Positions 1,552-17,437 of a DNA stretch of 21,608 bases are shown one piece after another; position 1 is the first letter of the stretch, and every line of letters begins with the position of its first letter. The notes beneath the pieces are model-generated. The model saw nothing but the letters and a program-made list of their open reading frames with translations. It was not told where the DNA came from and did not search any database. Source of the DNA: Sandaracinaceae bacterium (GTDB lineage Bacteria; Myxococcota_A; Polyangia; Polyangiales; Sandaracinaceae); contig JBGAQA010000105.1 of the NCBI GenBank assembly GCA_044220955.1, positions 1 through 21,608 on the forward strand. The letters run 5' to 3'. The translations under genes were made by a program, and so were the position numbers.

Positions 1552-2946
<1,395 letters not shown>

Positions 2947-2948
2947 AC

Positions 2949-3619
2949 ATGGAGACCTCGGCCGCGGCCATGACCACCGATCTCAGCACGTCAGGCCAAG
3001 TGCTCTTCGTGCTCGCCGCGATCGTCGCGCTCGTGTCGGCCATCGCGACGGTCTCGCAGCGCTCACCGCTACGTGCCGCGATGGGCCTGCTCCTGCACAT
3101 CGTCTCGCTGGCGGGGCTCTACCTCTCGCTCCACGCGCACCTGCTCGCTGCGATCCAGATGCTCGTGTACGCGGGCGCCGTCGTCGTCCTGTTCGTCTTC
3201 GTCATCATGCTCATCGGCCCTGGCGCGCTCTCCTCGCGGCCCGACGAGCGGGGCGTGTCGGTGAAGATCGTGGGCGTCGCCACCATCGCGATCATCTCCG
3301 GCGCGATCGCCGCGCAGGTCGGCGCGACGGATCTGGGGCACGTGCTGATCCCCTCGTGCGCGCAGGGTGCGCAGGGCTGTGTCGAGTTCGGCGGGGTCGA
3401 CGCCCTCTCGCAGGCCATCTTCGTGGACGCGGCCGTCCCCTTCGAGCTCGTCTCGATCCTCTTGCTCGTCGCCGTCATCGTGGCGATCGCGGTCGCGCCG
3501 TGCATCGCGGTGAGAAGGGGGTGGGCGGCGAGCCGAGCGAGGACGCGAGCGCGCCGAAGAAGCTCCCCATCCGGCCGCGTACGGCCGATCCCCTCCCCGA
3601 AGAAACCGCAGCGGAGTGA
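2949..3619 (+). CDS. nuoJ: NADH-quinone oxidoreductase subunit J; apparent frameshift near 3497 (as written it reads on in frame into nuoK)
   Basis: QMLVYAGAVVVLFVFVIML and PFELVSILLLVAVI motifs; GGAGG at 2935-2939. A natural-looking tail (AVHRGEKG...EETAAE*) lies in the -1 frame and ends at 3619. Confidence 0.85.
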
Positions 3620-3629
3620 GGACACGACG

Positions 3630-3938
3630 ATGCTGATCGGTCTCGGTACCTACCTCGCGCTCGCCGCCGTCCTGTTCGGGATCGGCGCGGCGGGCTTCCT
3701 CACCCGGCGCAACCTGCTGCTCCAGCTCATGTCGATCGAGATCATGCTGAACTCGGTCAACCTGACGCTGGTCGCGTTCAACCGCTGGACGCCCGAGAGC
3801 CACGCCGGCCAGGTGTTCGCGTTCTTCGTGATCGCGGTCGCCGCGGCCGAGGCCGCGGTCGGCCTCGCCATCCTCATCAGCCTCTATCGCTTGAAGAAGT
3901 CGGTCGACAGCGATCGCGCCGACCTTCTCAGGAACTGA
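3630..3938 (+). CDS. nuoK: NADH-quinone oxidoreductase subunit K
   Basis: RRNLL, MSIEIMLNSVNL and GQVFAFFVIAVAAAEAAVGLA motifs; own GAGGA ribosome-binding site before ATG 3630. Confidence 0.95.
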   Translation: MLIGLGTYLALAAVLFGIGAAGFLTRRNLLLQLMSIEIMLNSVNLTLVAFNRWTPESHAGQVFAFFVIAVAAAEAAVGLAILISLYRLKKSVDSDRADLLRN

Positions 3939-3941
3939 TCG

Positions 3942-6689
3942 ATGGACTTGCTCACAGAGAACGTCGACCTCTCGGGCTTCGCGGGCAACTCGCTCGCGTG
4001 GATCGTCCTCTTGCCGCTGCTCGCGGCGCTCATCAACGGCAGCTTCGGCGGCCGCGCGGACAAGTGGGTCGTCACCCTCGTCTCCGTCGGCTCCGTGTTC
4101 ACGTCGTTCCTGATCGCGCTCTACGCGTTCGGCACGCTGCTGCGCGCATCGGGCACCGAGGGCGACGAGGGGCGCATCGTCCAGACGGTCTATCAGTGGT
4201 TCGCGCTGGCCATCCCCGCGGGGGACGGGGCCGTCTACAACGTTCCGATCCAGGTCCGCTTCGTCATGGATCACCTCTCCGGGATCATGACGATCATGGT
4301 CACGGGGATCGCGTCGCTCATCCACGTGTACTCGACGAGCTACATGGGTGAGGACGCGGGCTACCCGCGGTTCATGACGTACCTGAACCTGTTCACCGCC
4401 TCGATGCTCATCCTCGTGCTCGGCTCGAACGTCCCCTTGATGTTCGTCGGCTGGGAGGGCGTCGGCCTCTGCTCGTACCTGCTGATCGGCTTCTGGTGGC
4501 AGAACCCGGCGTACGCGGCGGCGGGACGCAAGGCGTTCGTCGTCAACCGCATCGGCGACTTCGGCGTGCTCATCGGCACGTTCATGCTCGTCTCGATCGC
4601 CCACAGCTTCGAGTTCGACCAGATCAACGCGGCGGCGGCCGAGATCGCGACGATGCCCTTCGTGATGGGCGGCGTGCCCTGGGGCATCCACGTCGGCACG
4701 CTCGCGGCGCTGATGCTCTTCCTCGGGTGCACCGGCAAGAGCGCGCAGCTGCCGCTCTTCGTCTGGCTGCCGGACGCGATGGCCGGCCCCACGCCGGTGT
4801 CCGCGCTCATCCACGCGGCCACGATGGTCACGGCGGGCGTCTATCTCTGCTGCCGCTTCTCGCCGATCTTCATCCACAGCACGACGGCGATGAGCGTGAT
4901 CGCGCTGGTCGGCGCGGCGACGGCCTTCGTCGCGGCCTCGATCGGCCTCGTGCAGAACCAGATGAAGAAGATCCTGGCCTACTCCACGGTCAGCCAGCTG
5001 GGCTTCATGTTCGCCGCGGTCGGCACGGGCGCGTTCGCCGCCGGCATCTTCCACGTCTTCACGCACGCGTTCTTCAAGGCCTGCCTCTTCCTCGGGGCGG
5101 GCTCGGTGATGCACGCGATCCACGCGCACGGCGACGCGGACATCCGCTACCTCGGCGGGCTCAAGAAGTACATGCCGCGGACGCGGATGACGTTCCTGCT
5201 CGCGTGCTGCGCGATCGCCGGCGTGCCGCTCTTCTCGGGCTTCTTCTCGAAGGACGAGATCCTGCTCGGCGCGCTCGAGTCCGCCGGACATCTGCCCGAG
5301 TGGGTCAGCTACACGGTGTTCGCGCTCCTCGTGATCACCGCGGGCATGACCGCCTTCTACATGTTCCGGCTCTACTTCCGGACGTTCGAGGGTGAGTTCA
5401 AGGGCGGGCATGCGCCGGCGGCCGAGGGCGACGCGCACGAGGGCGACGAGCCCCACGAGGACCCGCACGAGTCCGACGACGCCATCACCACGCCGCTGGT
5501 CATCCTCGCGGTCGGAGCCGTGCTCGTCGGCTTCCTCGGCCTGCCGCACTGGATCGTGGGCGAGCGCTTCTCGTGGTGGTCGCACTGGATGAGCGGCGAG
5601 GCGGAGCACTGGGGCCCGGTCGCGACGTGGGCCCGCTACGCGGTCGACGGAGAAGCTCACGAGGCGGCGGGCCTCGGCCCGATCGCGATGGTGCTCGGCA
5701 CCCTCGCCGGCCTCGGCGGCATCGGCCTCGCGTACCAGTGGTACTACGTCGGTGACGGCTCGGTCCCGGGTGCGCTGATGCAGCAGTGGCCGCGCCTGCA
5801 CGCGTTCCTGATGGACAAGTGGCGCGTCGACGAGCTCTACGAGACTGTCTTCCTCGGTCCGTTCAAGTGGCTCGCCGTCGTGACGGCGAACATCGATCGC
5901 ATCCTCGTCGACGGCTTGCTGACGGTGGTCCCGGGGTGGATCGCCAAGGGCCTGGGGATGATCGCGACGCGCGTCTCGACCGGCGCCATCTACGCGTACA
6001 CGACGCTCTTCGTGGTCGGCACCGCCGGCGTGATCTGGTGGTTCACCTACCCGCACACGACCGTGGTGGGCCAGGTGGACGAGGCGACCGTGGCGTGGAC
6101 CGCCGAGCGCGGCACCGGCTACACGTACCGCTGGGACTTCGACTCGGACGGAGTGCCCGACACCGAGTGGTCGGACTCACCGGCGGCCTCGCACACGTAT
6201 GGTGACGCCGACGGCTACGTCGGCCTGGTCGCGCAGGTCGAGGACGAGGAAGGCACGACCGTCAGCGAGGTCGAGATCACGCCGGGCACGCGCGTGGTCC
6301 CGCTGGAGGAGGCGGGCTTCCGACTCGCCGTCATCTCGACCGACGACGAGGCCGCCGCGGTGACCGCGCCGACGGTGCGCCTCGAGGGCTCGCACGTCGT
6401 GCTCGACACGGGCAGCGCCGACGCGCTCGTCGGCGCCGAGCGCTCGACGCCCGAGGATCACGTGTTCGAGCTGGACGCCGGCGACGTGGCGCGGATGAGC
6501 GGCGCCATCGTGCGCATCGGCGCGCGCGCGTGCGCGACGGTCGAGACCCAGAGCGCGTTCGGCAACCACTCCCACACCCGCGAGTGCGTGACCGTGCGTG
6601 TGCCCCACACGGAGATGGAGCCGATGGCCAGCGCCGACGCCGATCATCGCGTCTTCGACGCCTCTTCCCAGCCGGGAGGCTCGCGATGA
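3942..6689 (+). CDS. nuoL: NADH-quinone oxidoreductase subunit L with a ~210-aa C-terminal soluble extension
   Basis: FVGWEGVGLCSYLLIGFW, GKSAQLPLFVWLPDAMAGPTPVSALIHAATMV, KKILAYSTVSQLG and HAFFKACLF motifs. Confidence 0.97.
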   Translation: MDLLTENVDLSGFAGNSLAWIVLLPLLAALINGSFGGRADKWVVTLVSVGSVFTSFLIALYAFGTLLRASGTEGDEGRIVQTVYQWFALAIPAGDGAVYNVPIQVRFVMDHLSGIMTIMVTGIASLIHVYSTSYMGEDAGYPRFMTYLNLFTASMLILVLGSNVPLMFVGWEGVGLCSYLLIGFWWQNPAYAAAGRKAFVVNRIGDFGVLIGTFMLVSIAHSFEFDQINAAAAEIATMPFVMGGVPWGIHVGTLAALMLFLGCTGKSAQLPLFVWLPDAMAGPTPVSALIHAATMVTAGVYLCCRFSPIFIHSTTAMSVIALVGAATAFVAASIGLVQNQMKKILAYSTVSQLGFMFAAVGTGAFAAGIFHVFTHAFFKACLFLGAGSVMHAIHAHGDADIRYLGGLKKYMPRTRMTFLLACCAIAGVPLFSGFFSKDEILLGALESAGHLPEWVSYTVFALLVITAGMTAFYMFRLYFRTFEGEFKGGHAPAAEGDAHEGDEPHEDPHESDDAITTPLVILAVGAVLVGFLGLPHWIVGERFSWWSHWMSGEAEHWGPVATWARYAVDGEAHEAAGLGPIAMVLGTLAGLGGIGLAYQWYYVGDGSVPGALMQQWPRLHAFLMDKWRVDELYETVFLGPFKWLAVVTANIDRILVDGLLTVVPGWIAKGLGMIATRVSTGAIYAYTTLFVVGTAGVIWWFTYPHTTVVGQVDEATVAWTAERGTGYTYRWDFDSDGVPDTEWSDSPAASHTYGDADGYVGLVAQVEDEEGTTVSEVEITPGTRVVPLEEAGFRLAVISTDDEAAAVTAPTVRLEGSHVVLDTGSADALVGAERSTPEDHVFELDAGDVARMSGAIVRIGARACATVETQSAFGNHSHTRECVTVRVPHTEMEPMASADADHRVFDASSQPGGSR

Positions 6690-8503
6690 GCGCCCCCACG
6701 ACCACGGACGTCCCCGTCCAGCTGCCCGCGTCGCCGGAGCCGACCGCGATCGAGCGATACCGCGCCTACGTCGTCGCCGGCGTCGTCGGCGCCGCGTTCC
6801 TGCTCTTCGCCGACTACGTTCCGGCCCCCGAGCACGGGCTGCTCTCGATGCTGCTGGCCGTGCCCTTCCTCGGTGCGATCGGTGTGCTCTTCATCCCGCG
6901 CCAGTGGGTGAACGAGATCCGCAACTTCTCGATGTTCGTGATGTGCCTCGAGCTGGTGCTCTCGGGCTGGTTGCGACAGGGTGACTACACGGGCTCGACG
7001 ATGCAGTTCGCCGAGAGCGCCGAGTGGGTGCCCTCGCTCGGCATCGGGTGGCGACTCGGAGTCGACGGCATCTCGTACTGGCTCGTGCTGCTGACCACGG
7101 CGCTGACGCCCATCTCGCTCTTCGTGTCCTACAACGCGGTGAGCACGAAGGTGAAGGAGTACGCGTTCTCCTTCCTGCTGCTCGAGGTGGGGATGCTCGG
7201 AGCGTTCGTCACGCTCGACCTCTTCCTCTTCTACGTGTTCTGGGAGCTGATGCTGGTGCCGATGTACCTCATCATCGGCATCTGGGGCGGCAAGGAGCGC
7301 ATCTACGCGGCGCTCAAGTTCTTCATCTACACCTTCGTCGGCAGCCTGCTGATGCTGATCGCGATCCTGTACGTGGTCGCGCAGTACCACGAGCTCACCG
7401 GGCTCTGGTCGTTCGCCTGGACGGATCTCGCGAACCTGCAGCTCCCGCCCGGCGAGCAGATCTGGCTCTTCGTCGCGTTCGCCCTCGCGTTCGCGATCAA
7501 GGTGCCGATGTTCCCGCTGCACACGTGGCTGCCCGACGCCCACGTGCAGGCCCCGACCGGTGGCTCGGTGATCCTGGCGGCCGTGCTCCTCAAGCTCGGC
7601 GGCTACGGGTTCCTCCGCTTCGCCATGCCGCTCTTCCCGTTCGCGTCGCACTTCCTCGGGCCCTCGATCGCCGTGTTCGCGGTGGTCGGCATCCTCTACG
7701 GCGCGGTCTGCGCGTGGGTGCAGCGCGACGTGAAGAAGCTCGTCGCGTACAGCTCGGTGAGCCACCTCGGCTTCGTGATGCTGGGCATCCTCTCGGTCAC
7801 GCAGACGGGCATCTCGGGCGCCATCCTTCAGATGGTCAGCCACGGCATCTCCACCGGCGCGCTCTTCATCCTCGTCGGCGTCATCTACGACCGCCGCCAC
7901 ACGCGCGACCTCGCCGACTTCGGCGGGCTCGCGAAGGTGATGCCCGCCTACACGGTGATCTTCGTGATCGTGACGATGAGCTCGGTGGGCCTGCCCGGCA
8001 CCAACGGCTTCGTCGGGGAGTTCATGATCCTCTCGGGCTCGTTCGTCTCGAGCGAGCTGGGGAACTTCGAGGCCCGCTTCGTCTTCTTCGCCGCGATGGG
8101 CGTGATCCTCGCGGCCGTCTACATGCTGCACGCAGTGCTCAAGATGTTCTGGGGGCCGGTGGACAAGAAGGAGAACGAGGGGCTCGCGGATCTCACGCAC
8201 CGGGAGCGCATCGCGCTCGCGCCGCTCGTGGTCGCGATCTTCTGGATCGGGTTCTTCCCGAACACCCTGCTCGAGACGATGCGTCCGAGCGTCGAGCACC
8301 TCGTCTCGACGTACGTGACCGAGTACACGAGCGACCAGCACGCCGAGGGGATGGCGCTGCGGCACGCGACCGAGGAGGCGGCGCCCCCGGCGCAGGACGC
8401 GCCGGCACCCGAGGGCGCGGCCGCCGTGCTCGACGGCGCCGATGCGCGGCGCGCCGCGGCCGCTGCCGACGTCCTGGCGCTCGCCCGGGGAGGCTCGCGA
8501 TGA
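6686..8503 (+). CDS. nuoM: NADH-quinone oxidoreductase subunit M
   Basis: FYVFWELMLVPMY, AIKVPMFPLHTWLPDAHVQAP and KKLVAYSSVSHLG motifs; ATGA overlap with nuoL and GGAGG upstream. Confidence 0.96.
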   Translation: MSAPTTTDVPVQLPASPEPTAIERYRAYVVAGVVGAAFLLFADYVPAPEHGLLSMLLAVPFLGAIGVLFIPRQWVNEIRNFSMFVMCLELVLSGWLRQGDYTGSTMQFAESAEWVPSLGIGWRLGVDGISYWLVLLTTALTPISLFVSYNAVSTKVKEYAFSFLLLEVGMLGAFVTLDLFLFYVFWELMLVPMYLIIGIWGGKERIYAALKFFIYTFVGSLLMLIAILYVVAQYHELTGLWSFAWTDLANLQLPPGEQIWLFVAFALAFAIKVPMFPLHTWLPDAHVQAPTGGSVILAAVLLKLGGYGFLRFAMPLFPFASHFLGPSIAVFAVVGILYGAVCAWVQRDVKKLVAYSSVSHLGFVMLGILSVTQTGISGAILQMVSHGISTGALFILVGVIYDRRHTRDLADFGGLAKVMPAYTVIFVIVTMSSVGLPGTNGFVGEFMILSGSFVSSELGNFEARFVFFAAMGVILAAVYMLHAVLKMFWGPVDKKENEGLADLTHRERIALAPLVVAIFWIGFFPNTLLETMRPSVEHLVSTYVTEYTSDQHAEGMALRHATEEAAPPAQDAPAPEGAAAVLDGADARRAAAAADVLALARGGSR

Positions 8504-8532
8504 ACAACTGCCTAAAGGCTGGTGGGCGATGA
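8500..8532 (+). CDS. Micro-ORF MNNCLKAGGR* coupled at both ends (cassette copy 1)
   Basis: ATG 8500 overlaps the nuoM TGA; TGA 8530-8532 overlaps the nuoN ATG 8529; GGAGG at 8489-8493; near-identical to 15527-15556. Translation is inferred, not shown. Confidence 0.65.
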   Translation: MNNCLKAGGR

Positions 8533-10034
8533 TCTCCGACTACCTCGGCGCCCTCGCGTCTCTCGCGCCGCTGCTCTGGGTGGCCGGAGCGGGCCTGGTG
8601 ATGATGCTCGTCGACGCGCTCGTGAAGGAGCGCGCGCACCTCGGGCTGATGACCTTCTTCATCCTGCTCGTCGGCTGCGGGCTCTCGCTCGCGCTCTGGG
8701 ACGACCCCCCGTCCGAGCAGCTCACGCTGGGCGGCTACCTCGCGCTCGACCGGCTCGCGCTCTTCATCGACGTCACCGTCTGCGGCGGCGGCGCGCTCGC
8801 GGCGCTCCTGGCCGGCGGCTACCTCAACGAGCACGGCCTCGAGCGTGGCGAGTTCTACCTCGTGCTGCTCTTCTCGGTGTTCGGCGCGATGGTCCTCGGC
8901 CGGGCCTCGGACCTGCTGACGCTCTTCGTCGCGCTCGAGACGCTCTCGCTCGGCGTGTACGGCCTGGTCGCGTTCCGGCGCCACAGCCCGCGCGCCGCGG
9001 AGGGCGCGATGAAGTACTTCCTTCTCGGCTCGTTCGCCTCGGCGATCCTGCTCTTCGGCTCGGCGCTGCTCTACGGCGCGACGGGGGCGACGAGCTTCGA
9101 GGCCATCGGCGCCTCGCTCGAGGGCGGTGACGCAGACCTGCGTCTGACGATCCTGGGCATGGCGCTGATCCTGATCGGCCTCGCTTTCAAGGTCAGCGCG
9201 GTGCCCTTCCACCAGTGGACGCCGGACGCCTACGAGGGCGCGGTCACGCCGGCGACCAGCTTCATGGCCGTGGTGGTCAAGTCGGCGGTGTTCGCGATCA
9301 TCATCCGCGTCTTCGTCGTGCTCTTCGGCACCGAGACGTTCACGACGACGGGCTCGGGCTGGCTCCCGGCGGTCGCGGGCCTGGCGGCCGTCACGATGGT
9401 CGTCGGCAACGTCGCCGCGCTCTCGCAGAAGAACGTGAAGCGGATGCTCGCGTACTCCTCGATCGCCCACGGCGGCTTCATCCTGATCGGCGTGGTCGCC
9501 GCGGGTCTCGCGCGCGGCACGAGCCAGGAGGCCGCCGCCCAGGCCCTCTCGTCGGTGCTCTACTACCTGCTCGCGTACACCGCATCGAACATCCTGGCCT
9601 TCGGCGCGCTCATCTGGGCGGGCAGCAAGGGCAAGGAGGCCGTCACGTACGACGACCTCGCAGGGCTCGGGCGCCGCCACCCCGTCGTGGCCCTGCCCTT
9701 CACCCTCGGCATCCTCTCGCTGATGGGCTTCCCCCCGACGGCCGGCTTCTTCGCGAAGTACGCCATCCTGGCGGCGGCCGTCTCGCAGGGTGGCGGGATG
9801 ATCTGGCTCGCCATCCTCGGCGTGCTCTCGAGCGCCGTGGGCGCGTACTACTACCTGCGCGTCCTGGTGTACCTCTTCATGAAGCAGCCGGAGAACGGCG
9901 CGGCGGTCGCGGTGCCGATGCGCTCGTTCTACGTGGTGAGCGCGCTCGTGCTCTCGAGCTACTTCGTGATCCGCATGGGCCTGGCCCCGACGCACTACCT
10001 CGAGCTCGCGCTCGCGGCCGCACAGCTCTCCTGA
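8529..10034 (+). CDS. nuoN: NADH-quinone oxidoreductase subunit N
   Basis: EGAMKYFLLGSFAS, FKVSAVPFHQWTPDAYEGA, KRMLAYSSIAHGG and GFPPTAGFFAK motifs. Confidence 0.96.
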   Translation: MISDYLGALASLAPLLWVAGAGLVMMLVDALVKERAHLGLMTFFILLVGCGLSLALWDDPPSEQLTLGGYLALDRLALFIDVTVCGGGALAALLAGGYLNEHGLERGEFYLVLLFSVFGAMVLGRASDLLTLFVALETLSLGVYGLVAFRRHSPRAAEGAMKYFLLGSFASAILLFGSALLYGATGATSFEAIGASLEGGDADLRLTILGMALILIGLAFKVSAVPFHQWTPDAYEGAVTPATSFMAVVVKSAVFAIIIRVFVVLFGTETFTTTGSGWLPAVAGLAAVTMVVGNVAALSQKNVKRMLAYSSIAHGGFILIGVVAAGLARGTSQEAAAQALSSVLYYLLAYTASNILAFGALIWAGSKGKEAVTYDDLAGLGRRHPVVALPFTLGILSLMGFPPTAGFFAKYAILAAAVSQGGGMIWLAILGVLSSAVGAYYYLRVLVYLFMKQPENGAAVAVPMRSFYVVSALVLSSYFVIRMGLAPTHYLELALAAAQLS

Positions 10035-14745: not shown

Positions 14746-14782
14746 AAGGGCCCGCGGACGAACATCCGCGGGCCTTTTCGTT
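14746..14782 (+). terminator. Intrinsic terminator after tsf
   Basis: aagGGCCCGCGGA-cgaaca-TCCGCGGGCC followed by ttttcgtt. Confidence 0.8.
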
Positions 14783-14798
14783 GTATAGAGCCTCCCGG

Positions 14799-15530
14799 AT
14801 GGCCGAGACGCTCAAGCACAAGCGGGTGATGCTCAAGCTCTCCGGCGAGGCGCTCGCCGGAGCCGACGGCGCCTTCGGGATCGATCCCGCGACGCTGCTC
14901 GTGCTGGCCACCGAGGTGGCCGAGGCGCACGCGCTCGGCGCGGAGTGCGGCGTCGTGATCGGCGGCGGCAACATCTTCCGCGGCCTCAAGGGCCACGGGC
15001 AGGGGATGGATCGCTCGACGGCCGACTACATGGGCATGCTCGCGACGGTGATCAACGCGCTCGCGCTGCAGGACACGCTCGAGCGGCTGAAGGTCGACAC
15101 GCGCGTGGTCTCTGCGCTCGACATCCGACAGGTCGCCGAGCCCTACATCCGCCGGCGCGCCGTGCGGCACCTCGAGAAGGGCCGCGTGGTCATCTTCGCC
15201 GCGGGCACGGGAAACCCGTTCTTCTCGACGGACACCGCGGCCGCGCTCCGCTCGATGGAGATCGGCGCGTCGCTCCTCTGCAAGGCGACCAACGTCGAGG
15301 GCGTCTACGACAAGGACCCCAAGAAGCACCCCGACGCGGTGATGTACCGGCGGCTCGACTACGATCGGTGCCTCAGCGACCGCATCGGCGTGATGGACTC
15401 GACCGCCATCACGCTCTGTCGCGAGAACAGGCTCCCCATCCGCGTGTTCGCGCTGCTCAAGCGCGGCAACATCAAGCGCGTGCTGCTCGGCGAGGACGTC
15501 GGGACGCTGGTGTCCGAGGAGAAATCATGA
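14799..15530 (+). CDS. pyrH: Uridylate kinase
   Basis: [40 protein letters not shown] and VMDSTA motifs. Confidence 0.97.
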
Positions 15531-15556
15531 ATTGCCTGAAGGCTGGTGGGCCATGA
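15527..15556 (+). CDS. Micro-[12 protein letters not shown] coupled at both ends (cassette copy 2)
   Basis: ATG 15527 overlaps the pyrH TGA; TGA 15554-15556 overlaps the frr ATG 15553; GAGGAG just upstream; near-identical to 8500-8532. Translation is inferred, not shown. Confidence 0.65.
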
Positions 15557-16110
15557 TCCAAGAAACGCTCGACGAGTTGAAGGGGAGCATCGGCAAGGCG
15601 CACGAGGCGCTCAAGCGCGAGCTCTCACGCCTGCGCACCGGGCGCGCGTCCCCCGAGCTGCTCGACTCGATCCGGGTCGACTACTACGGCACGTCGACGC
15701 CGGTGACGCAGATGGCGAGCGTCTCGGTGCCGGAGCCGCGCCTCCTGGTCATCAAGCCGTTCGACGCGGGGATGATCAAGCAGATCGAGCAGACGATCCT
15801 GCAGTCGCCGCTCGGGCTCACGCCGCAGAACGACGGCAAGATCATCCGGCTGCCGATGCCGCCGCTCACCGAGCAGCGGCGCAAGGAGCTCGCCAAGGTC
15901 GCCAAGGGCCACGGCGAGGACTGCAAGGTCGCGATCCGCAAGGCGCGCCACGAGTGCCGCGACATGCTGGCCGAGATCGAGAAGGACGGCGGGGCCAGCG
16001 CCGACGAGGTCGACCGCGCGAAGAAGGCGATGGAGGACATCGTGAAAGAGGGCACCGACCGGTCGGACGAGCTCGTCGCCCACAAGGAAAAGGACATCCT
16101 CTCGCTCTAG
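15553..16110 (+). CDS. frr: Ribosome recycling factor
   Basis: LRTGRASP, IRVDYYG, LGLTPQNDG and PPLTEQRRKEL motifs; canonical position after pyrH. Confidence 0.97.
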   Translation: MIQETLDELKGSIGKAHEALKRELSRLRTGRASPELLDSIRVDYYGTSTPVTQMASVSVPEPRLLVIKPFDAGMIKQIEQTILQSPLGLTPQNDGKIIRLPMPPLTEQRRKELAKVAKGHGEDCKVAIRKARHECRDMLAEIEKDGGASADEVDRAKKAMEDIVKEGTDRSDELVAHKEKDILSL

Positions 16111-16125
16111 TGTCCGGGGCTCGCG

Positions 16126-16215
16126 CCCCTCACCCAGCCCTCTCGCCGCGAGCGGGGAGAGGGCTTCGAGCTCGGTTCCCTCTCCCACCTCGTGGGAGAG
16201 GGCTAGGGTGAGGGC
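16126..16215. repeat. BoxC-like nested palindromic extragenic repeat
   Basis: Outer inverted repeat ccctcacccagccctctc / gagagggctagggtgaggg enclosing two hairpins, gccctctcgccgc...ggagagggc and ccctctcccac-ctc-gtgggagaggg. Confidence 0.7.
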
Positions 16216-16249
16216 GACGCGCCACCGATCGACCCAGGGACCGCCATCC

Positions 16250-17437
16250 ATGCTCGAGCACTTCTCCCGACGCGCAGAACCTTCGGAGCTCGAGCAGCGT
16301 CCGCTCGCGGGGCTGCGCGTGCTCGACGTCTCCCGCCTCTTGCCGGGTCCCTTCGCGGCCATGGCGCTCGCCGACCTCGGCGCGAAGGTCGACAAGATCG
16401 AGGACGCGGGCGGCGGCGACTACCTGCGCTTCATGCCGCCGCACGTCTCGACCGGGCAGAACGCCGTCTTCGAGATGCTGAACCGCGGCAAGCGCAGCGT
16501 CGTGCTCGATCTCAAGAAGGAGCCGGCGCGGGCCGCGTTCCGCAAGCTGATCACGCGCTACGACGTCCTGATCGAGAGCTTCCGGCCGGGCGTGATGGCC
16601 AAGCTCGGGCTCGGTTACGAGTCGCTCGCCGCGCTCAACCCCGGGCTCGTGTACTGCGCGATCACCGGCTACGGCCAGACGGGGCCGCTCGCGATGCGCG
16701 CGGGACACGACATCGACTACCTCGCGCACGCGGGCGTGCTCGGGCTCACGGGCCCCGAGGACGGCGCGCCTCAGGTCGCCGGCGTGCAGATGGCCGACAT
16801 CGGTGGCGGCGCGGCGTATGCGCTGGTCGGGATCCTCGCGGCGCTCTCGGCGCGCGGCATCACCGGCAAGGGCCGCTTCGTCGATGTCTCGATGTGCGAG
16901 GGGTCGGCGAGCTTCGGCGCGTTCGGGCTGATGAGCGCTTGGGGCGGCATGTCCTTGCCCAAGGGCACGGGCCCGCTCTCGGGCGGGATCGCGCCGTTCC
17001 AGAACTACCTCACCAAGGACGGCCGCAGCGTCGCGCTCGGCGCGCTCGAGCCGAAGTTCTGGATCGCGTTCGCCACGGCGGTCGGGCTCGATCCGGACAT
17101 GACGGCGCTCGCGCCGGGCGAGCACCAGCCCGAGTGGAAGCGGAAGGTCGCGGCGATCTTCGCCGACAAGACGCTCGCCGAGTGGATCGCGTTCGCCGAG
17201 AAGGTGGACTGCTGTCTCGAGCCGGTCCTCACGCCCGAGGAGGTCGCGGAGCACCCGCACCACCGCGCGCGCGGCTTCGTCGCGGACGTGACGCTGCGCG
17301 ACGGCTCGACCCTGCCGCAGCTCAAGACGCCCACGGCGCACGCGATGGCGCAGGGCTTCGCCCCACGGCAGGGCGAGCACACCGCCGAGGTGCTGCGCGA
17401 GGCGGGCCTCAGCGACGCGGAGATCGCAGCGCTGTAG
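16250..17437 (+). CDS. CaiB/BaiF (family III) CoA-transferase, AMACR-like
   Basis: PLAGLRVLDVSRLLPGP, LNRGKRS, ESFRPGV, ITGYGQTGP, GHDIDY, AD and APRQGEHT motifs. Start position uncertain. Confidence 0.92.
   Translation: MLEHFSRRAEPSELEQRPLAGLRVLDVSRLLPGPFAAMALADLGAKVDKIEDAGGGDYLRFMPPHVSTGQNAVFEMLNRGKRSVVLDLKKEPARAAFRKLITRYDVLIESFRPGVMAKLGLGYESLAALNPGLVYCAITGYGQTGPLAMRAGHDIDYLAHAGVLGLTGPEDGAPQVAGVQMADIGGGAAYALVGILAALSARGITGKGRFVDVSMCEGSASFGAFGLMSAWGGMSLPKGTGPLSGGIAPFQNYLTKDGRSVALGALEPKFWIAFATAVGLDPDMTALAPGEHQPEWKRKVAAIFADKTLAEWIAFAEKVDCCLEPVLTPEEVAEHPHHRARGFVADVTLRDGSTLPQLKTPTAHAMAQGFAPRQGEHTAEVLREAGLSDAEIAAL

What the first reader, a model, noticed from the sequence alone, without database searches (positions are those of the whole stretch)
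8500..8532. Doubly coupled micro-ORF cassette (MNNCLKAGGR*) between nuoM and nuoN, repeated at pyrH/frr
Seen: ATG AAC AAC TGC CTA AAG GCT GGT GGG CGA TGA. Its ATG overlaps the nuoM stop and its TGA overlaps the nuoN start (ATGA at both ends). 8506-8534 matches 15530-15558 at 26/29 nt in an unrelated operon, with the same geometry. Differences are two synonymous changes (AAC/AAT, CTA/CTG), the last codon, and a frame-preserving 3-nt indel. Deleting 8504-8532 restores GGAGGCTCGCG-ATGA-TCTCC, a normal coupled junction like nuoL/nuoM, so the GGAGG now serves the micro-ORF. The insert is 16/29 GC and uses codons rare in the flanking genes (CTA, GCT, GGT). Inference: a translational relay, in which ribosomes reinitiate, make a CLKAGG peptide and reinitiate again, gating the downstream gene; or a tiny insertion element targeting ATGA overlaps without breaking coupling. 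I know no named family for it.
Basis: partly seen in the sequence, partly recalled or inferred. Interest (0 to 1): 0.92.

Follow-up and report, generated by a model that had tools for sequence, protein, structure and literature searches.

The report
Tiny start-codon insertion cassette family
The two ten-codon mini-genes are copies of a very short DNA repeat that, in one group of myxobacteria, has been inserted exactly at the start codons of unrelated genes, and it brings its own ribosome-binding signal and start so the genes still work.

Summary
Micro-ORF A (8500-8532) and micro-ORF B (15527-15556) overlap a stop codon and a start codon through ATGA at both ends, and they match at 26 of 29 nt.

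They are not a conserved peptide. They belong to a nucleotide-level repeat family:
- The core is AATTGCCTGAAGGCYKGTCG.
- The unit is 26-32 nt.
- There are about 11 copies in this genome and more in same-genus genomes.
- An exact core motif was found in no other genus among 151 genomes of the order.

Every copy examined ends in the ATG or GTG of a real gene. Sister species have empty sites at nuoM/N, pyrH/frr and six other junctions.

The reading frame of the "peptide" differs between subfamilies (MNCLKAGGP versus MKLPEGLSS). Only the geometry is kept. Of 44 copies with an upstream start, 39 end on the gene's ATGA, 5 are in frame with the gene and 0 are in the harmful third frame.

Each unit carries an SD-like GRAGG 8-10 nt before the regenerated start. 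It therefore behaves like a natural, portable bicistronic junction that relays ribosomes.

How it spreads is unknown. Variable flank duplications (4-10 bp), tandem arrays and local clustering point to microhomology-based copying or to an unidentified enzyme. I found no description in print.

The parts
6686..8503 (+). nuoM (complex I chain M); its stop TGA 8501-8503 overlaps the micro-ORF start
   Evidence: Pfam Proton_antipo_M, E 8.7e-77; ORF list
8489..8493 (+). Native Shine-Dalgarno GGAGG of the original nuoN start. It now sits 6 nt before the micro-ORF ATG
   Evidence: Sequence. The same GGAGGCTCGCGATGA occurs at the nuoL/M junction 6675-6689. Relatives have GGAGGtgcgcgATGA at the empty site
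8500..8532 (+). Micro-ORF A (MNNCLKAGGR*); the unit is 29 nt from the old start to the new start
   Evidence: spanned by contigs of other runs
8504..8532 (+). Inserted 29 nt relative to empty sites. The junction is ambiguous over the repeated GCGATGA (8494-8503 and 8523-8532 share it)
   Evidence: Alignment of orthologous junctions: 8 of 10 empty, G000 and G024 occupied
8506..8519 (+). Conserved family core (AACTGCCTAAAGGC, here 2 changes from AATTGCCTGAAGGC). It contains the SD-like AAAGG at 8514-8518, 10 nt before the nuoN ATG
   Evidence: Family profile; duplex with the 16S 3' tail -11.0 kcal/mol
8529..10034 (+). nuoN, starting at the regenerated ATG(A)
   Evidence: Pfam Proton_antipo_M, E 2.1e-62
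14781..15530 (+). pyrH (UMP kinase family); its stop TGA 15528-15530 overlaps the micro-ORF B start
   Evidence: Pfam AA_kinase; ORF list
15527..15556 (+). Micro-ORF B (MNCLKAGGP*); a 26-nt unit. It holds the core ATTGCCTGAAGGC at 15531-15543 and the SD-like GAAGG at 15538-15542, 10 nt before the frr ATG
   Evidence: Empty site aacATGATC in 4 same-genus and 24 other loci. Duplex with the 16S tail -15.6 kcal/mol. Spanned by contigs of other runs
15553..16110 (+). frr (ribosome recycling factor), starting at the regenerated ATG(A)
   Evidence: Pfam RRF, E 7.4e-61

Best explanation
Both micro-ORFs are copies of a short interspersed DNA cassette that I found only in this genus of high-GC myxobacteria.

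Anatomy of a unit:
- It is about 22 nt of conserved sequence, (A)ATTGCCTGAAGGC-YKGTCG-N2-4, followed by a regenerated start (A/G)TGA.
- It lies directly behind a copy of the gene's original start codon.

Consequences of an insertion:
1. The old start, still served by the gene's old Shine-Dalgarno, opens an 8-10 codon frame.
2. The cassette supplies an SD-like GRAGG 8-10 nt before the new start.
3. The frame stops on the TGA of the new ATGA.

Ribosomes are thus handed on to the gene by termination-reinitiation, or they initiate de novo on the internal SD. The insertion is close to silent.

The peptide is a by-product. What selection keeps is the length class of the unit.

Shown here: the family, its insertion at start codons, empty sites in relatives, the frame bias, and flank duplications of variable length. 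Inferred: that the micro-ORF is translated and relays ribosomes.

The way the cassette copies itself is unknown. My best guess is microhomology-guided copying from an existing copy, by template switching or short-patch illegitimate recombination. The (A/G)TGA and the SD-to-start stretch would serve as microhomology, and selection would remove all insertions that break a gene. A dedicated but unidentified enzyme is nearly as likely.
For: Family:
- In G000, nhmmer and regular expressions find 11 copies.
- A motif without ATGA gave 9 hits in G000, and all 9 are followed by ATGA 3-6 nt later.
- All 11 downstream ORFs start at the unit's ATG and have Pfam domains: nuoN, frr, T2SSF, DEAD/DbpA, PEPCK, thiolase, ExbD, DctP, zf-HC2 anti-sigma, S8 and a PLP decarboxylase.
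- Exact ATTGCCTGAAGGC-type cores number 16 in G024, 9 in G021, 2 in G020, 2 in G022 and 1 in G023. By my reading of the contexts fetched, 27 of these 30 are followed by (A/G)TGA.
- 24 of 29 downstream ORFs in those genomes have Pfam hits, and none is a mobile-element protein.
- The exact core ATTGCCTGAAGGCNNGT occurs in 2 of 151 genomes sampled from the order (G000 2 copies, G024 11) with 0 control hits.

Insertion (occupied versus empty orthologous junctions):
- nuoM/N and pyrH/frr.
- gspE/F, rpsN/rpsH and thiolase.
- Three loci of sister genomes.
- The frr/CoA-transferase junction, occupied in G024 and empty in the window.

The element is nucleotide-level, not a peptide:
- The conserved block is contiguous.
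- Two reading frames are in use.

Frame constraint:
- The 44 curated copies have unit lengths 26 (28 copies), 29 (9), 32 (2), 27 (3) and 30 (2). None has length equal to 1 mod 3.
- Left-part and spacer lengths compensate: 5+9, 6+8 and 9+5 all give 26.
- Orthologous anti-sigma copies are 26 nt in G000 and 29 nt in G021.

Shine-Dalgarno:
- The 16S tail is canonical.
- The spacer from AGGC to the start is 8 nt in 23 copies, 9 nt in 19 and 5 nt in 5, of 47.

Copying mode:
- The flank repeat extends beyond (A/G)TGA by a mean of 1.79 nt, against 0.99±0.17 in shuffled pairings (9 of 5000 shuffles reach it).
- The extension is at least 3 nt in 11 of 39 copies, against 9% expected (0 of 5000 shuffles).
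- There are tandem arrays and a 36-nt inverted duplication that a metagenome variant of the same locus lacks.
- Two pairs of copies lie within 8 kb among the 11 G000 copies. I expect about 0.12 such pairs, by my own arithmetic.
- A and B share the spacer TGGTGGGC, which no other copy has.
Against: - No translation or expression data were obtained.
- The frame statistic counts orthologous copies separately, and most copies descend from a 26-nt form, so the independent events are fewer than 44.
- Copies for searches were collected with a filter that requires (A/G)TGA after the core. The unbiased sets are those.
- About 10 copies lack the upstream start, so the relay is dispensable once the internal SD works.
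- At gspE/F and thiolase the whole spacer differs from relatives, and gspF starts ATGG in the empty genomes. Not every case is a clean insertion into ATGA.
- Against a purely host-driven microhomology process: reported rates of short-patch illegitimate recombination are about 1e-12 to 1e-13 (discussion passage of bioRxiv 10.1101/2023.11.22.568220). That looks too low for the many copies of one genome (16 exact and further near-exact cores in G024).
- No copy was seen at ATGA sites that are only stop codons. Random ATGA use plus selection would not obviously exclude such sites.
Confidence: 0.8

Rival explanations
1. Regulatory relay peptide. The micro-ORF encodes a functional CLKAGG-type peptide, or a sensing leader, whose translation gates nuoN and frr.
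For: The doubly overlapping ATGA geometry is real. Unit lengths are constrained so that the frame ends on the gene's start. A and B differ mostly by changes that are synonymous in that frame.
Against: The largest subfamily reads the core in another frame (MKLPEGLSS*), and 5 copies are fused in frame to the gene. Conservation shows no codon periodicity. About 10 copies have lost the ATG. The target genes share no function. Sister species do without the cassette at the same junctions.
Confidence: 0.05
2. Shared cis-regulatory site. The conserved 20 nt over the ribosome-binding site is an operator for one trans-acting small RNA or RNA-binding protein. The cassette has been kept because it puts the genes into one translational regulon.
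For: A 20-nt block covering the SD is far better conserved than an SD needs to be. It always sits at the initiation region.
Against: The genes are functionally unrelated: complex I, frr, secretion, ribosomal proteins, kinases and transporters. Occupancy of a given junction differs between sister species. Older orthologous copies decay outside GRAGG and the start (rpsH in three species). No antisense copy outside initiation regions was found in G000. There is no Rfam family and no fold better than shuffles (z 0.41 to -0.47).
Confidence: 0.1
3. True transposable or retroposed micro-element moved by a dedicated enzyme encoded elsewhere. Candidates are a nuclease or recombinase recognising CATG/TCATGA, or a reverse transcriptase using target-primed synthesis. 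This rivals only the copying step of the best explanation.
For: Copy number differs strongly between species: 16 and 9 exact cores against 1-2. All copies sit at one kind of site. Variable target duplications resemble target-primed retroposition. TCATGA, common at unit ends, is a palindrome, and one locus carries the core inverted.
Against: No copy lies next to a transposase, reverse transcriptase or nuclease gene. There are no terminal inverted repeats or hairpin. Y1 transposase homologues occur in all 6 genomes regardless of copy number. The boundaries of the copied segment vary between copies.
Confidence: 0.4
4. Chance similarity or an assembly or binning artefact.
For: The genome is a fragmented metagenome assembly (301 contigs, 88% complete).
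Against: Contigs from other runs, including a different study, carry both cassettes unchanged. The family occurs in six genomes and in metagenome contigs. Control patterns give 0-1 hits.
Confidence: 0.01

Closest known systems
Translational coupling at overlapping stop/start codons (ATGA, TGATG) by termination-reinitiation (Huber et al. 2019, PMC6728339; abstract read)
   Same: Both ends of each micro-ORF are ATGA overlaps. An SD-like motif lies inside the upstream frame, ahead of the downstream start.
   Different: Here two overlaps are chained through an inserted 26-29 nt unit that is itself a repeated, apparently mobile sequence. Coupling was not measured.
Synthetic bicistronic design (BCD) translation-initiation elements (abstracts in the listing: PMC5995908, bioRxiv 10.1101/2023.02.09.527918; the original 2013 description is recalled, not seen)
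   Same: There is a short leader cistron, the gene's SD is embedded in that cistron, and the leader's stop overlaps the gene's start. It is portable in front of any gene.
   Different: This one is natural, only 8-10 codons long, and has spread within genomes. Any benefit such as unfolding of GC-rich mRNA is untested.
Small interspersed bacterial repeats: REP/BIME, MITEs, and the Rickettsia palindromic elements that insert in frame into genes (review PMC3184786 seen as a listing abstract; RPE recalled)
   Same: It is short, multi-copy and lineage-specific. It has presence/absence polymorphism between species and tandem clusters. Like RPEs, it survives by not destroying the gene it hits.
   Different: It has no palindrome or terminal inverted repeats and no fixed target duplication. 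Its core is only about 22 nt. It is strictly located at start codons and carries an SD and a start.
[quoted passage not shown]
   Same: Short (3 to about 100 bp) ectopic patches are integrated at microhomologies that may contain mismatches. The junctions are variable.
   Different: SPDIR products are described as highly variable in sequence and extremely rare. Here one sequence has been copied dozens of times to one kind of site.
   Same: DNA inserted into an overlapping junction leaves the old start to open a short bridging frame.
   Different: That case involves hairpin repeats and long spacers. This cassette has no hairpin and brings its own SD and start. I did not check that note.

Membership tests
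ATGA stop/start overlap coupling (termination-reinitiation) | The stop of the upstream frame overlaps the start of the downstream frame (ATGA or TGATG) | tested here: met
   nuoM TGA 8501-8503 with ATG 8500-8502; micro-ORF TGA 8530-8532 with nuoN ATG 8529-8531; the same at 15527-15530 and 15553-15556
ATGA stop/start overlap coupling (termination-reinitiation) | Translation of the downstream gene depends on translation of the upstream frame | not testable with these tools
   Needs reporters or ribosome profiling. The only indirect support is the absence of unit lengths equal to 1 mod 3 (0 of 44)
REP/BIME (RAYT-mobilised) elements | An imperfect palindrome that forms a stable hairpin | tested here: not met
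   RNA folds of both cassettes and a third copy are no better than shuffles (z 0.41 to -0.47). Variants of the GCCT..AGGC arms show no compensating changes (my reading)
REP/BIME (RAYT-mobilised) elements | Co-occurrence with a Y1 (RAYT) transposase that tracks the repeat | tested here: inconclusive
   PF01797 matches occur in all 6 genomes of the genus (1-8 each) without relation to cassette number
MITE | Terminal inverted repeats and a target duplication of fixed length | tested here: not met
   The ends share only (TC)ATGA. The flank repeat varies from 4 to 10 bp
Regulatory leader peptide / attenuator uORF | A conserved peptide or diagnostic codons, in one reading frame | tested here: not met
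   Two frames are in use, there are in-frame fusions, and conservation shows no codon periodicity
Bicistronic-design-like initiation element (works like, not a natural family) | A short leader ORF containing the SD of the gene, with its stop overlapping the gene's start | tested here: met
   GRAGG lies 8-10 nt before the start inside the micro-ORF, with ATGA overlap in 39 of 44 copies
SPDIR-type microindel | An ectopic patch of 3 to about 100 bp joined at microhomologies on both sides | tested here: inconclusive
   The size fits, and junction homology of 4-10 bp exceeds shuffled controls. However, repeated use of one donor sequence and the high copy number are not typical
Any Rfam RNA family | A match to a curated covariance model | tested here: not met
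   0 matches in the whole window at gathering scores and 0 at E<=1 for 8440-8600

The most novel reading that the evidence does not exclude
This is a new class of mobile DNA and the smallest self-contained one described, with a core of about 22 nt. It homes to start codons and makes itself invisible by rebuilding a ribosome-binding site, a start codon and two stop/start overlaps. In effect it is a natural, self-spreading 'bicistronic junction'. It would be moved either by an unrecognised enzyme that acts at (C)ATGA or by target-primed copying. Its bursts (dozens of copies in one species, one or two in others) would rewire translation initiation of housekeeping operons.
Probability: 0.35. Interest if true: 0.85.

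Novelty: new variant of a known kind. Interest (0 to 1): 0.62.

Why it matters
- It shows that DNA can be inserted into the most sensitive spot of a gene, the start codon, even inside complex I and ribosomal-protein operons. This works if the insert restores SD, start and reading-frame geometry.
- The family is a natural experiment on termination-reinitiation. Dozens of independent junctions carry one cassette, the length classes are constrained, and sister species with empty sites serve as controls.
- For annotation, it explains strings of 8-10 codon 'genes' between coupled genes. These should not be called as peptides.
- For engineering, the cassette is a ready-made portable coupler for very GC-rich hosts.
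- If its spread needs a dedicated activity, that activity would be new. If it does not, this is the first case I know of a sequence amplified by microhomology copying plus selection alone.

Tried and rejected
- Peptide conservation: rejected.
- RNA or DNA hairpin: the folds of five stretches are no better than shuffles.
- Rfam: nothing.
- A longer parent element sharing only one end: in G000 the left-half motif TGCCTRRAGGC occurs 12 times. Six are cassettes and six are unrelated coding matches, and no split ends were seen.
- A neighbouring mobile-element gene: none among 11 + 29 downstream ORFs or the 10 upstream ORF segments scanned.
- RAYT/Y1 transposase as the mover: present in all six genomes, uninformative.
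- Origin from the 5' end of the ABC1-kinase gene that follows a tandem array in G024: rejected, because its orthologues start ATGAGC without the motif.
- Derivation from the antisense of the 16S 3' end: only an SD-like resemblance.
Only records titled Sandaracinaceae, Polyangiales or Deltaproteobacteria held several or tandem copies.
- Metagenome scan: 46 hits, of which 17 are cassettes by GC >= 0.62 plus a following (A/G)TGA. The rest are chance matches.
- Population polymorphism: contigs of four runs showed no empty allele. Contigs drop rare variants, so this says little.
- Literature: five full-text searches found no description of such a cassette. Most subscription journals are not in that library.
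- Earlier scan notes by sequence: none.
Full report
**What is there**

The window is the whole 21,608-bp contig C6 of a 7.5-Mb, 72.5% GC metagenome-assembled genome. Its genes, by Pfam, run as follows:
- nuoF;
- a NuoJ+NuoK ORF;
- nuoL (3942-6689), nuoM (6686-8503) and nuoN (8529-10034);
- a Bax1-I protein;
- rpsB, tsf, pyrH (14781-15530) and frr (15553-16110);
- a family III CoA-transferase;
- panD.

Between nuoM and nuoN lies ATGAACAACTGCCTAAAGGCTGGTGGGCGATGA (8500-8532). Between pyrH and frr lies ATGAATTGCCTGAAGGCTGGTGGGCCATGA (15527-15556). In both, the first ATG overlaps the upstream stop and the last TGA overlaps the downstream start.

- The two stretches are 26 of 29 identical.
- The 29-nt insert has 16 G+C.
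- The left junction is identical to the nuoL/nuoM junction.

Contigs from other public runs, one of them from a different study, carry both cassettes unchanged.

**It is a repeat family, not a pair**

In G000:
- A third copy with the same geometry lies between a T2SSE and a T2SSF gene on contig C301.
- A profile of the first copies, plus regular expressions, found 11 copies in G000.
- A motif that does not include ATGA gave 9 hits, and all 9 are followed by ATGA 3-6 nt later.
- All 11 downstream ORFs begin at that ATG and are ordinary genes: nuoN, frr, T2SSF, a DEAD/DbpA helicase, PEPCK, thiolase, ExbD, DctP, a zf-HC2 anti-sigma factor, ribosomal protein S8 and a PLP decarboxylase.

In the other five genomes of the genus:
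- Exact WTTGCCTGRAGGC cores number 16 (G024), 9 (G021), 2 (G020), 2 (G022) and 1 (G023).
- By my reading of the contexts fetched, 27 of these 30 are followed by ATGA or GTGA.
- 24 of 29 downstream ORFs there have Pfam hits, such as coaD, purS, atpH, rplN, lgt, acrB and kinases. None is a mobile-element protein.

Outside the genus:
- The strict pattern found nothing in 26 genomes of 11 other genera of the family.
- The exact core ATTGCCTGAAGGCNNGT occurred in only 2 of 151 genomes sampled from the order (G000 and G024), with 0 control hits.
- In the scan of all species representatives, only records titled Sandaracinaceae, Polyangiales or Deltaproteobacteria held several or tandem copies.
- A metagenome scan with a pattern lacking ATGA gave 46 hits. 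Seventeen lie in contigs of GC >= 0.62 and are followed by (A/G)TGA.

**They are insertions**

| Junction | Occupied | Empty |
|---|---|---|
| nuoM/N | G000, G024 | G020, G021, G022, G023 and four genomes of other genera, as a plain ...GGAGGnnnnnnATGA... overlap |
| pyrH/frr | G000 only | 28 of the 29 loci aligned; the four same-genus empties read ...SD...aacATGATC |
| gspE/F | G000, G024 | four genomes |
| rpsN/rpsH | G000, G021, and decayed in G023 | G024, G020 |
| thiolase | G000 only | G020, G022, G023, G024 |
| three loci occupied in G024 or G021 | those genomes | relatives, as ATGA or GTGA starts; one is a clean CGATCATGA|GCAAG against CGATCATGA[26 nt]GTCGC |
| frr/CoA-transferase | G024 | the window |

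G029, which is flagged unpublished, contributes one empty pyrH/frr row and tally rows only.

**It is a nucleotide element; the peptide is incidental**
- Conservation is one contiguous block, AATTGCCTGAAGGC(C)(T)GTCG. It drops sharply on both sides and shows no 3-nt periodicity.
- The window copies read MNNCLKAGGR and MNCLKAGGP. The commonest form in G024, ATGAAATTGCCTGAAGGCCTGTCGTCATGA, reads MKLPEGLSS in another frame.
- About ten copies have lost the upstream ATG through point changes such as ATCA, GGGA and ACGA.

**The geometry is nevertheless constrained**

Among 44 curated copies with an upstream start, the distance from the old start to the new start is distributed as follows:

| Distance (nt) | Copies | Class |
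|---|---|---|
| 26 | 28 | ends on the gene's ATGA/GTGA |
| 29 | 9 | ends on the gene's ATGA/GTGA |
| 32 | 2 | ends on the gene's ATGA/GTGA |
| 27 | 3 | in frame with the gene |
| 30 | 2 | in frame with the gene |

So 39 frames end on the gene's start, 5 are in frame with the gene, and none is in the third frame.

- I dropped nine rows before this count as false positives. Eight had three core mismatches and no other likeness. In the ninth the GTG lay inside the upstream stop region. One of the nine had a length equal to 1 mod 3.
- Left-part and spacer lengths compensate: 5+9, 6+8 and 9+5 all give 26.
- The orthologous anti-sigma copies are 26 nt in G000 and 29 nt in G021.
- Caveats: orthologues are counted separately, and most copies descend from a 26-nt form.

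The simplest reading is that ribosomes do start at the old start codon. Insertions that would carry them across the gene's start in the wrong frame have therefore been lost.

**How a unit works (inferred)**

1. The old start keeps the gene's native SD (GGAGG at 8489-8493, 6 nt before ATG 8500).
2. The cassette holds GRAGG 8-10 nt before the new start. The spacer from AGGC to the start is 8 nt in 23 copies, 9 nt in 19 and 5 nt in 5, of 47.
3. The 16S 3' end of this genome is canonical.
4. Predicted duplexes with that tail are -15.6 kcal/mol for B and -11.0 for A. The native nuoL/M SD gives -10.8 and the main G024 form -6.6.
5. The stop on ATGA allows termination-reinitiation. Experiments on such overlaps found strict coupling in 13 of 14 gene pairs (PMC6728339, abstract).

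The arrangement is that of a synthetic bicistronic design: a short leader cistron contains the gene's SD and its stop overlaps the gene's start (abstracts). Nothing suggests regulation. There is no better-than-random RNA fold and no Rfam match.

**How it spreads (open)**

Evidence on the copying mode:
- There are no terminal inverted repeats, hairpin or neighbouring enzyme gene.
- Y1 transposase homologues are present in all six genomes regardless of copy number.
- The direct repeat flanking a unit always includes (A/G)TGA, but it extends by variable amounts to either side. Examples are GCGATGA at nuoN here, CCGATGA at the same site in G024, GCACATGA, and CATGAAGCA or CCATGAACAA reaching into the gene.
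- The mean extension is 1.79 nt, against 0.99±0.17 for shuffled pairings (9 of 5000 shuffles reach it). It is at least 3 nt in 11 of 39 copies, against 9% expected (0 of 5000).
- There are tandem arrays with identical or different units.
- One locus has a 36-nt inverted duplication that makes a palindrome. A metagenome variant of the same locus has the simple single unit.
- Copies cluster. The two window copies are 7 kb apart and two on C144 are 7.8 kb apart. I expect about 0.12 such pairs among 11 copies, by my own arithmetic. Pairs 1-12 kb apart also occur in G021 and G024.
- A and B share a spacer (TGGTGGGC) that no other copy has.

These features fit copying from a nearby unit through microhomology. 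This could be template switching, or the short-patch double illegitimate recombination described in Acinetobacter (bioRxiv 10.1101/2023.11.22.568220; abstract and introduction passages), followed by selection.

Three points argue the other way, for a dedicated activity:
- That paper gives a very low rate.
- Copy numbers differ strongly between species.
- No copy sits at an ATGA that is only a stop codon.

I put the two at roughly equal odds.

**Novelty**

Five full-text searches and Rfam found no description of such a cassette. The library lacks most subscription journals. The principle is the same but the element is different, and I did not check that note.

I file this as a new variant of small interspersed bacterial repeats. 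It has an unusual target (start codons) and an unusual payload (SD plus start).

Noticed in passing
window 2943-3938: One 331-codon ORF carries both the NuoJ (Oxidored_q3, residues 32-183) and NuoK (Oxidored_q2, residues 237-330) domains. This is either a fused nuoJK gene or two genes read in one frame.
   Followed up: no
window 16111-16250: The frr/CoA-transferase spacer holds two GC-rich inverted repeats built on CCCTCTC../GGGAGAGGGC. GGGAGAGGGC occurs 54 times in the genome on both strands, which suggests a REP-like hairpin family. In G024 the same spacer is replaced by 7 nt plus a start-codon cassette.
   Followed up: partly
G000:C221:6398-6420 (L202): The rpsH start is preceded by a decayed cassette and then carries a 9-nt tandem duplication ATGAGCAGC ATGAGCAGC (MSSMSS...) that relatives lack.
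   Followed up: partly
L221 604-679 (G024:C30): At the junction before an Hsp70-like gene, a cassette is followed by a 36-nt inverted duplication of the cassette core plus the gene's first 10 nt. This makes a near-perfect palindrome. The 62-nt bridge still ends on the gene's ATGA. A metagenome contig (L324) has the simple single cassette at the same locus.
   Followed up: yes
L227 (G024:C228), L235, L237, L005 (G021:C345): These are tandem chains of two to three cassettes. Some use GTGA instead of ATGA, and they give relays of two micro-ORFs. In one array the TGA inside CCTGAAGG serves as the stop of the upstream gene.
   Followed up: partly
G000:C148:1-140 and G000:C279:77350-77440: Two different 16S 3' ends with different downstream spacers occur in the assembly. 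This means either two rRNA operons or a contaminant contig.
   Followed up: no
window 15510-15530 versus L048-L051: In relatives pyrH ends at TAG or TGA 20-30 nt before frr. In this genome that stop is gone and pyrH reads on (..SEEKS*) to the ATGA of the cassette. A second change therefore accompanied or followed the insertion.
   Followed up: partly
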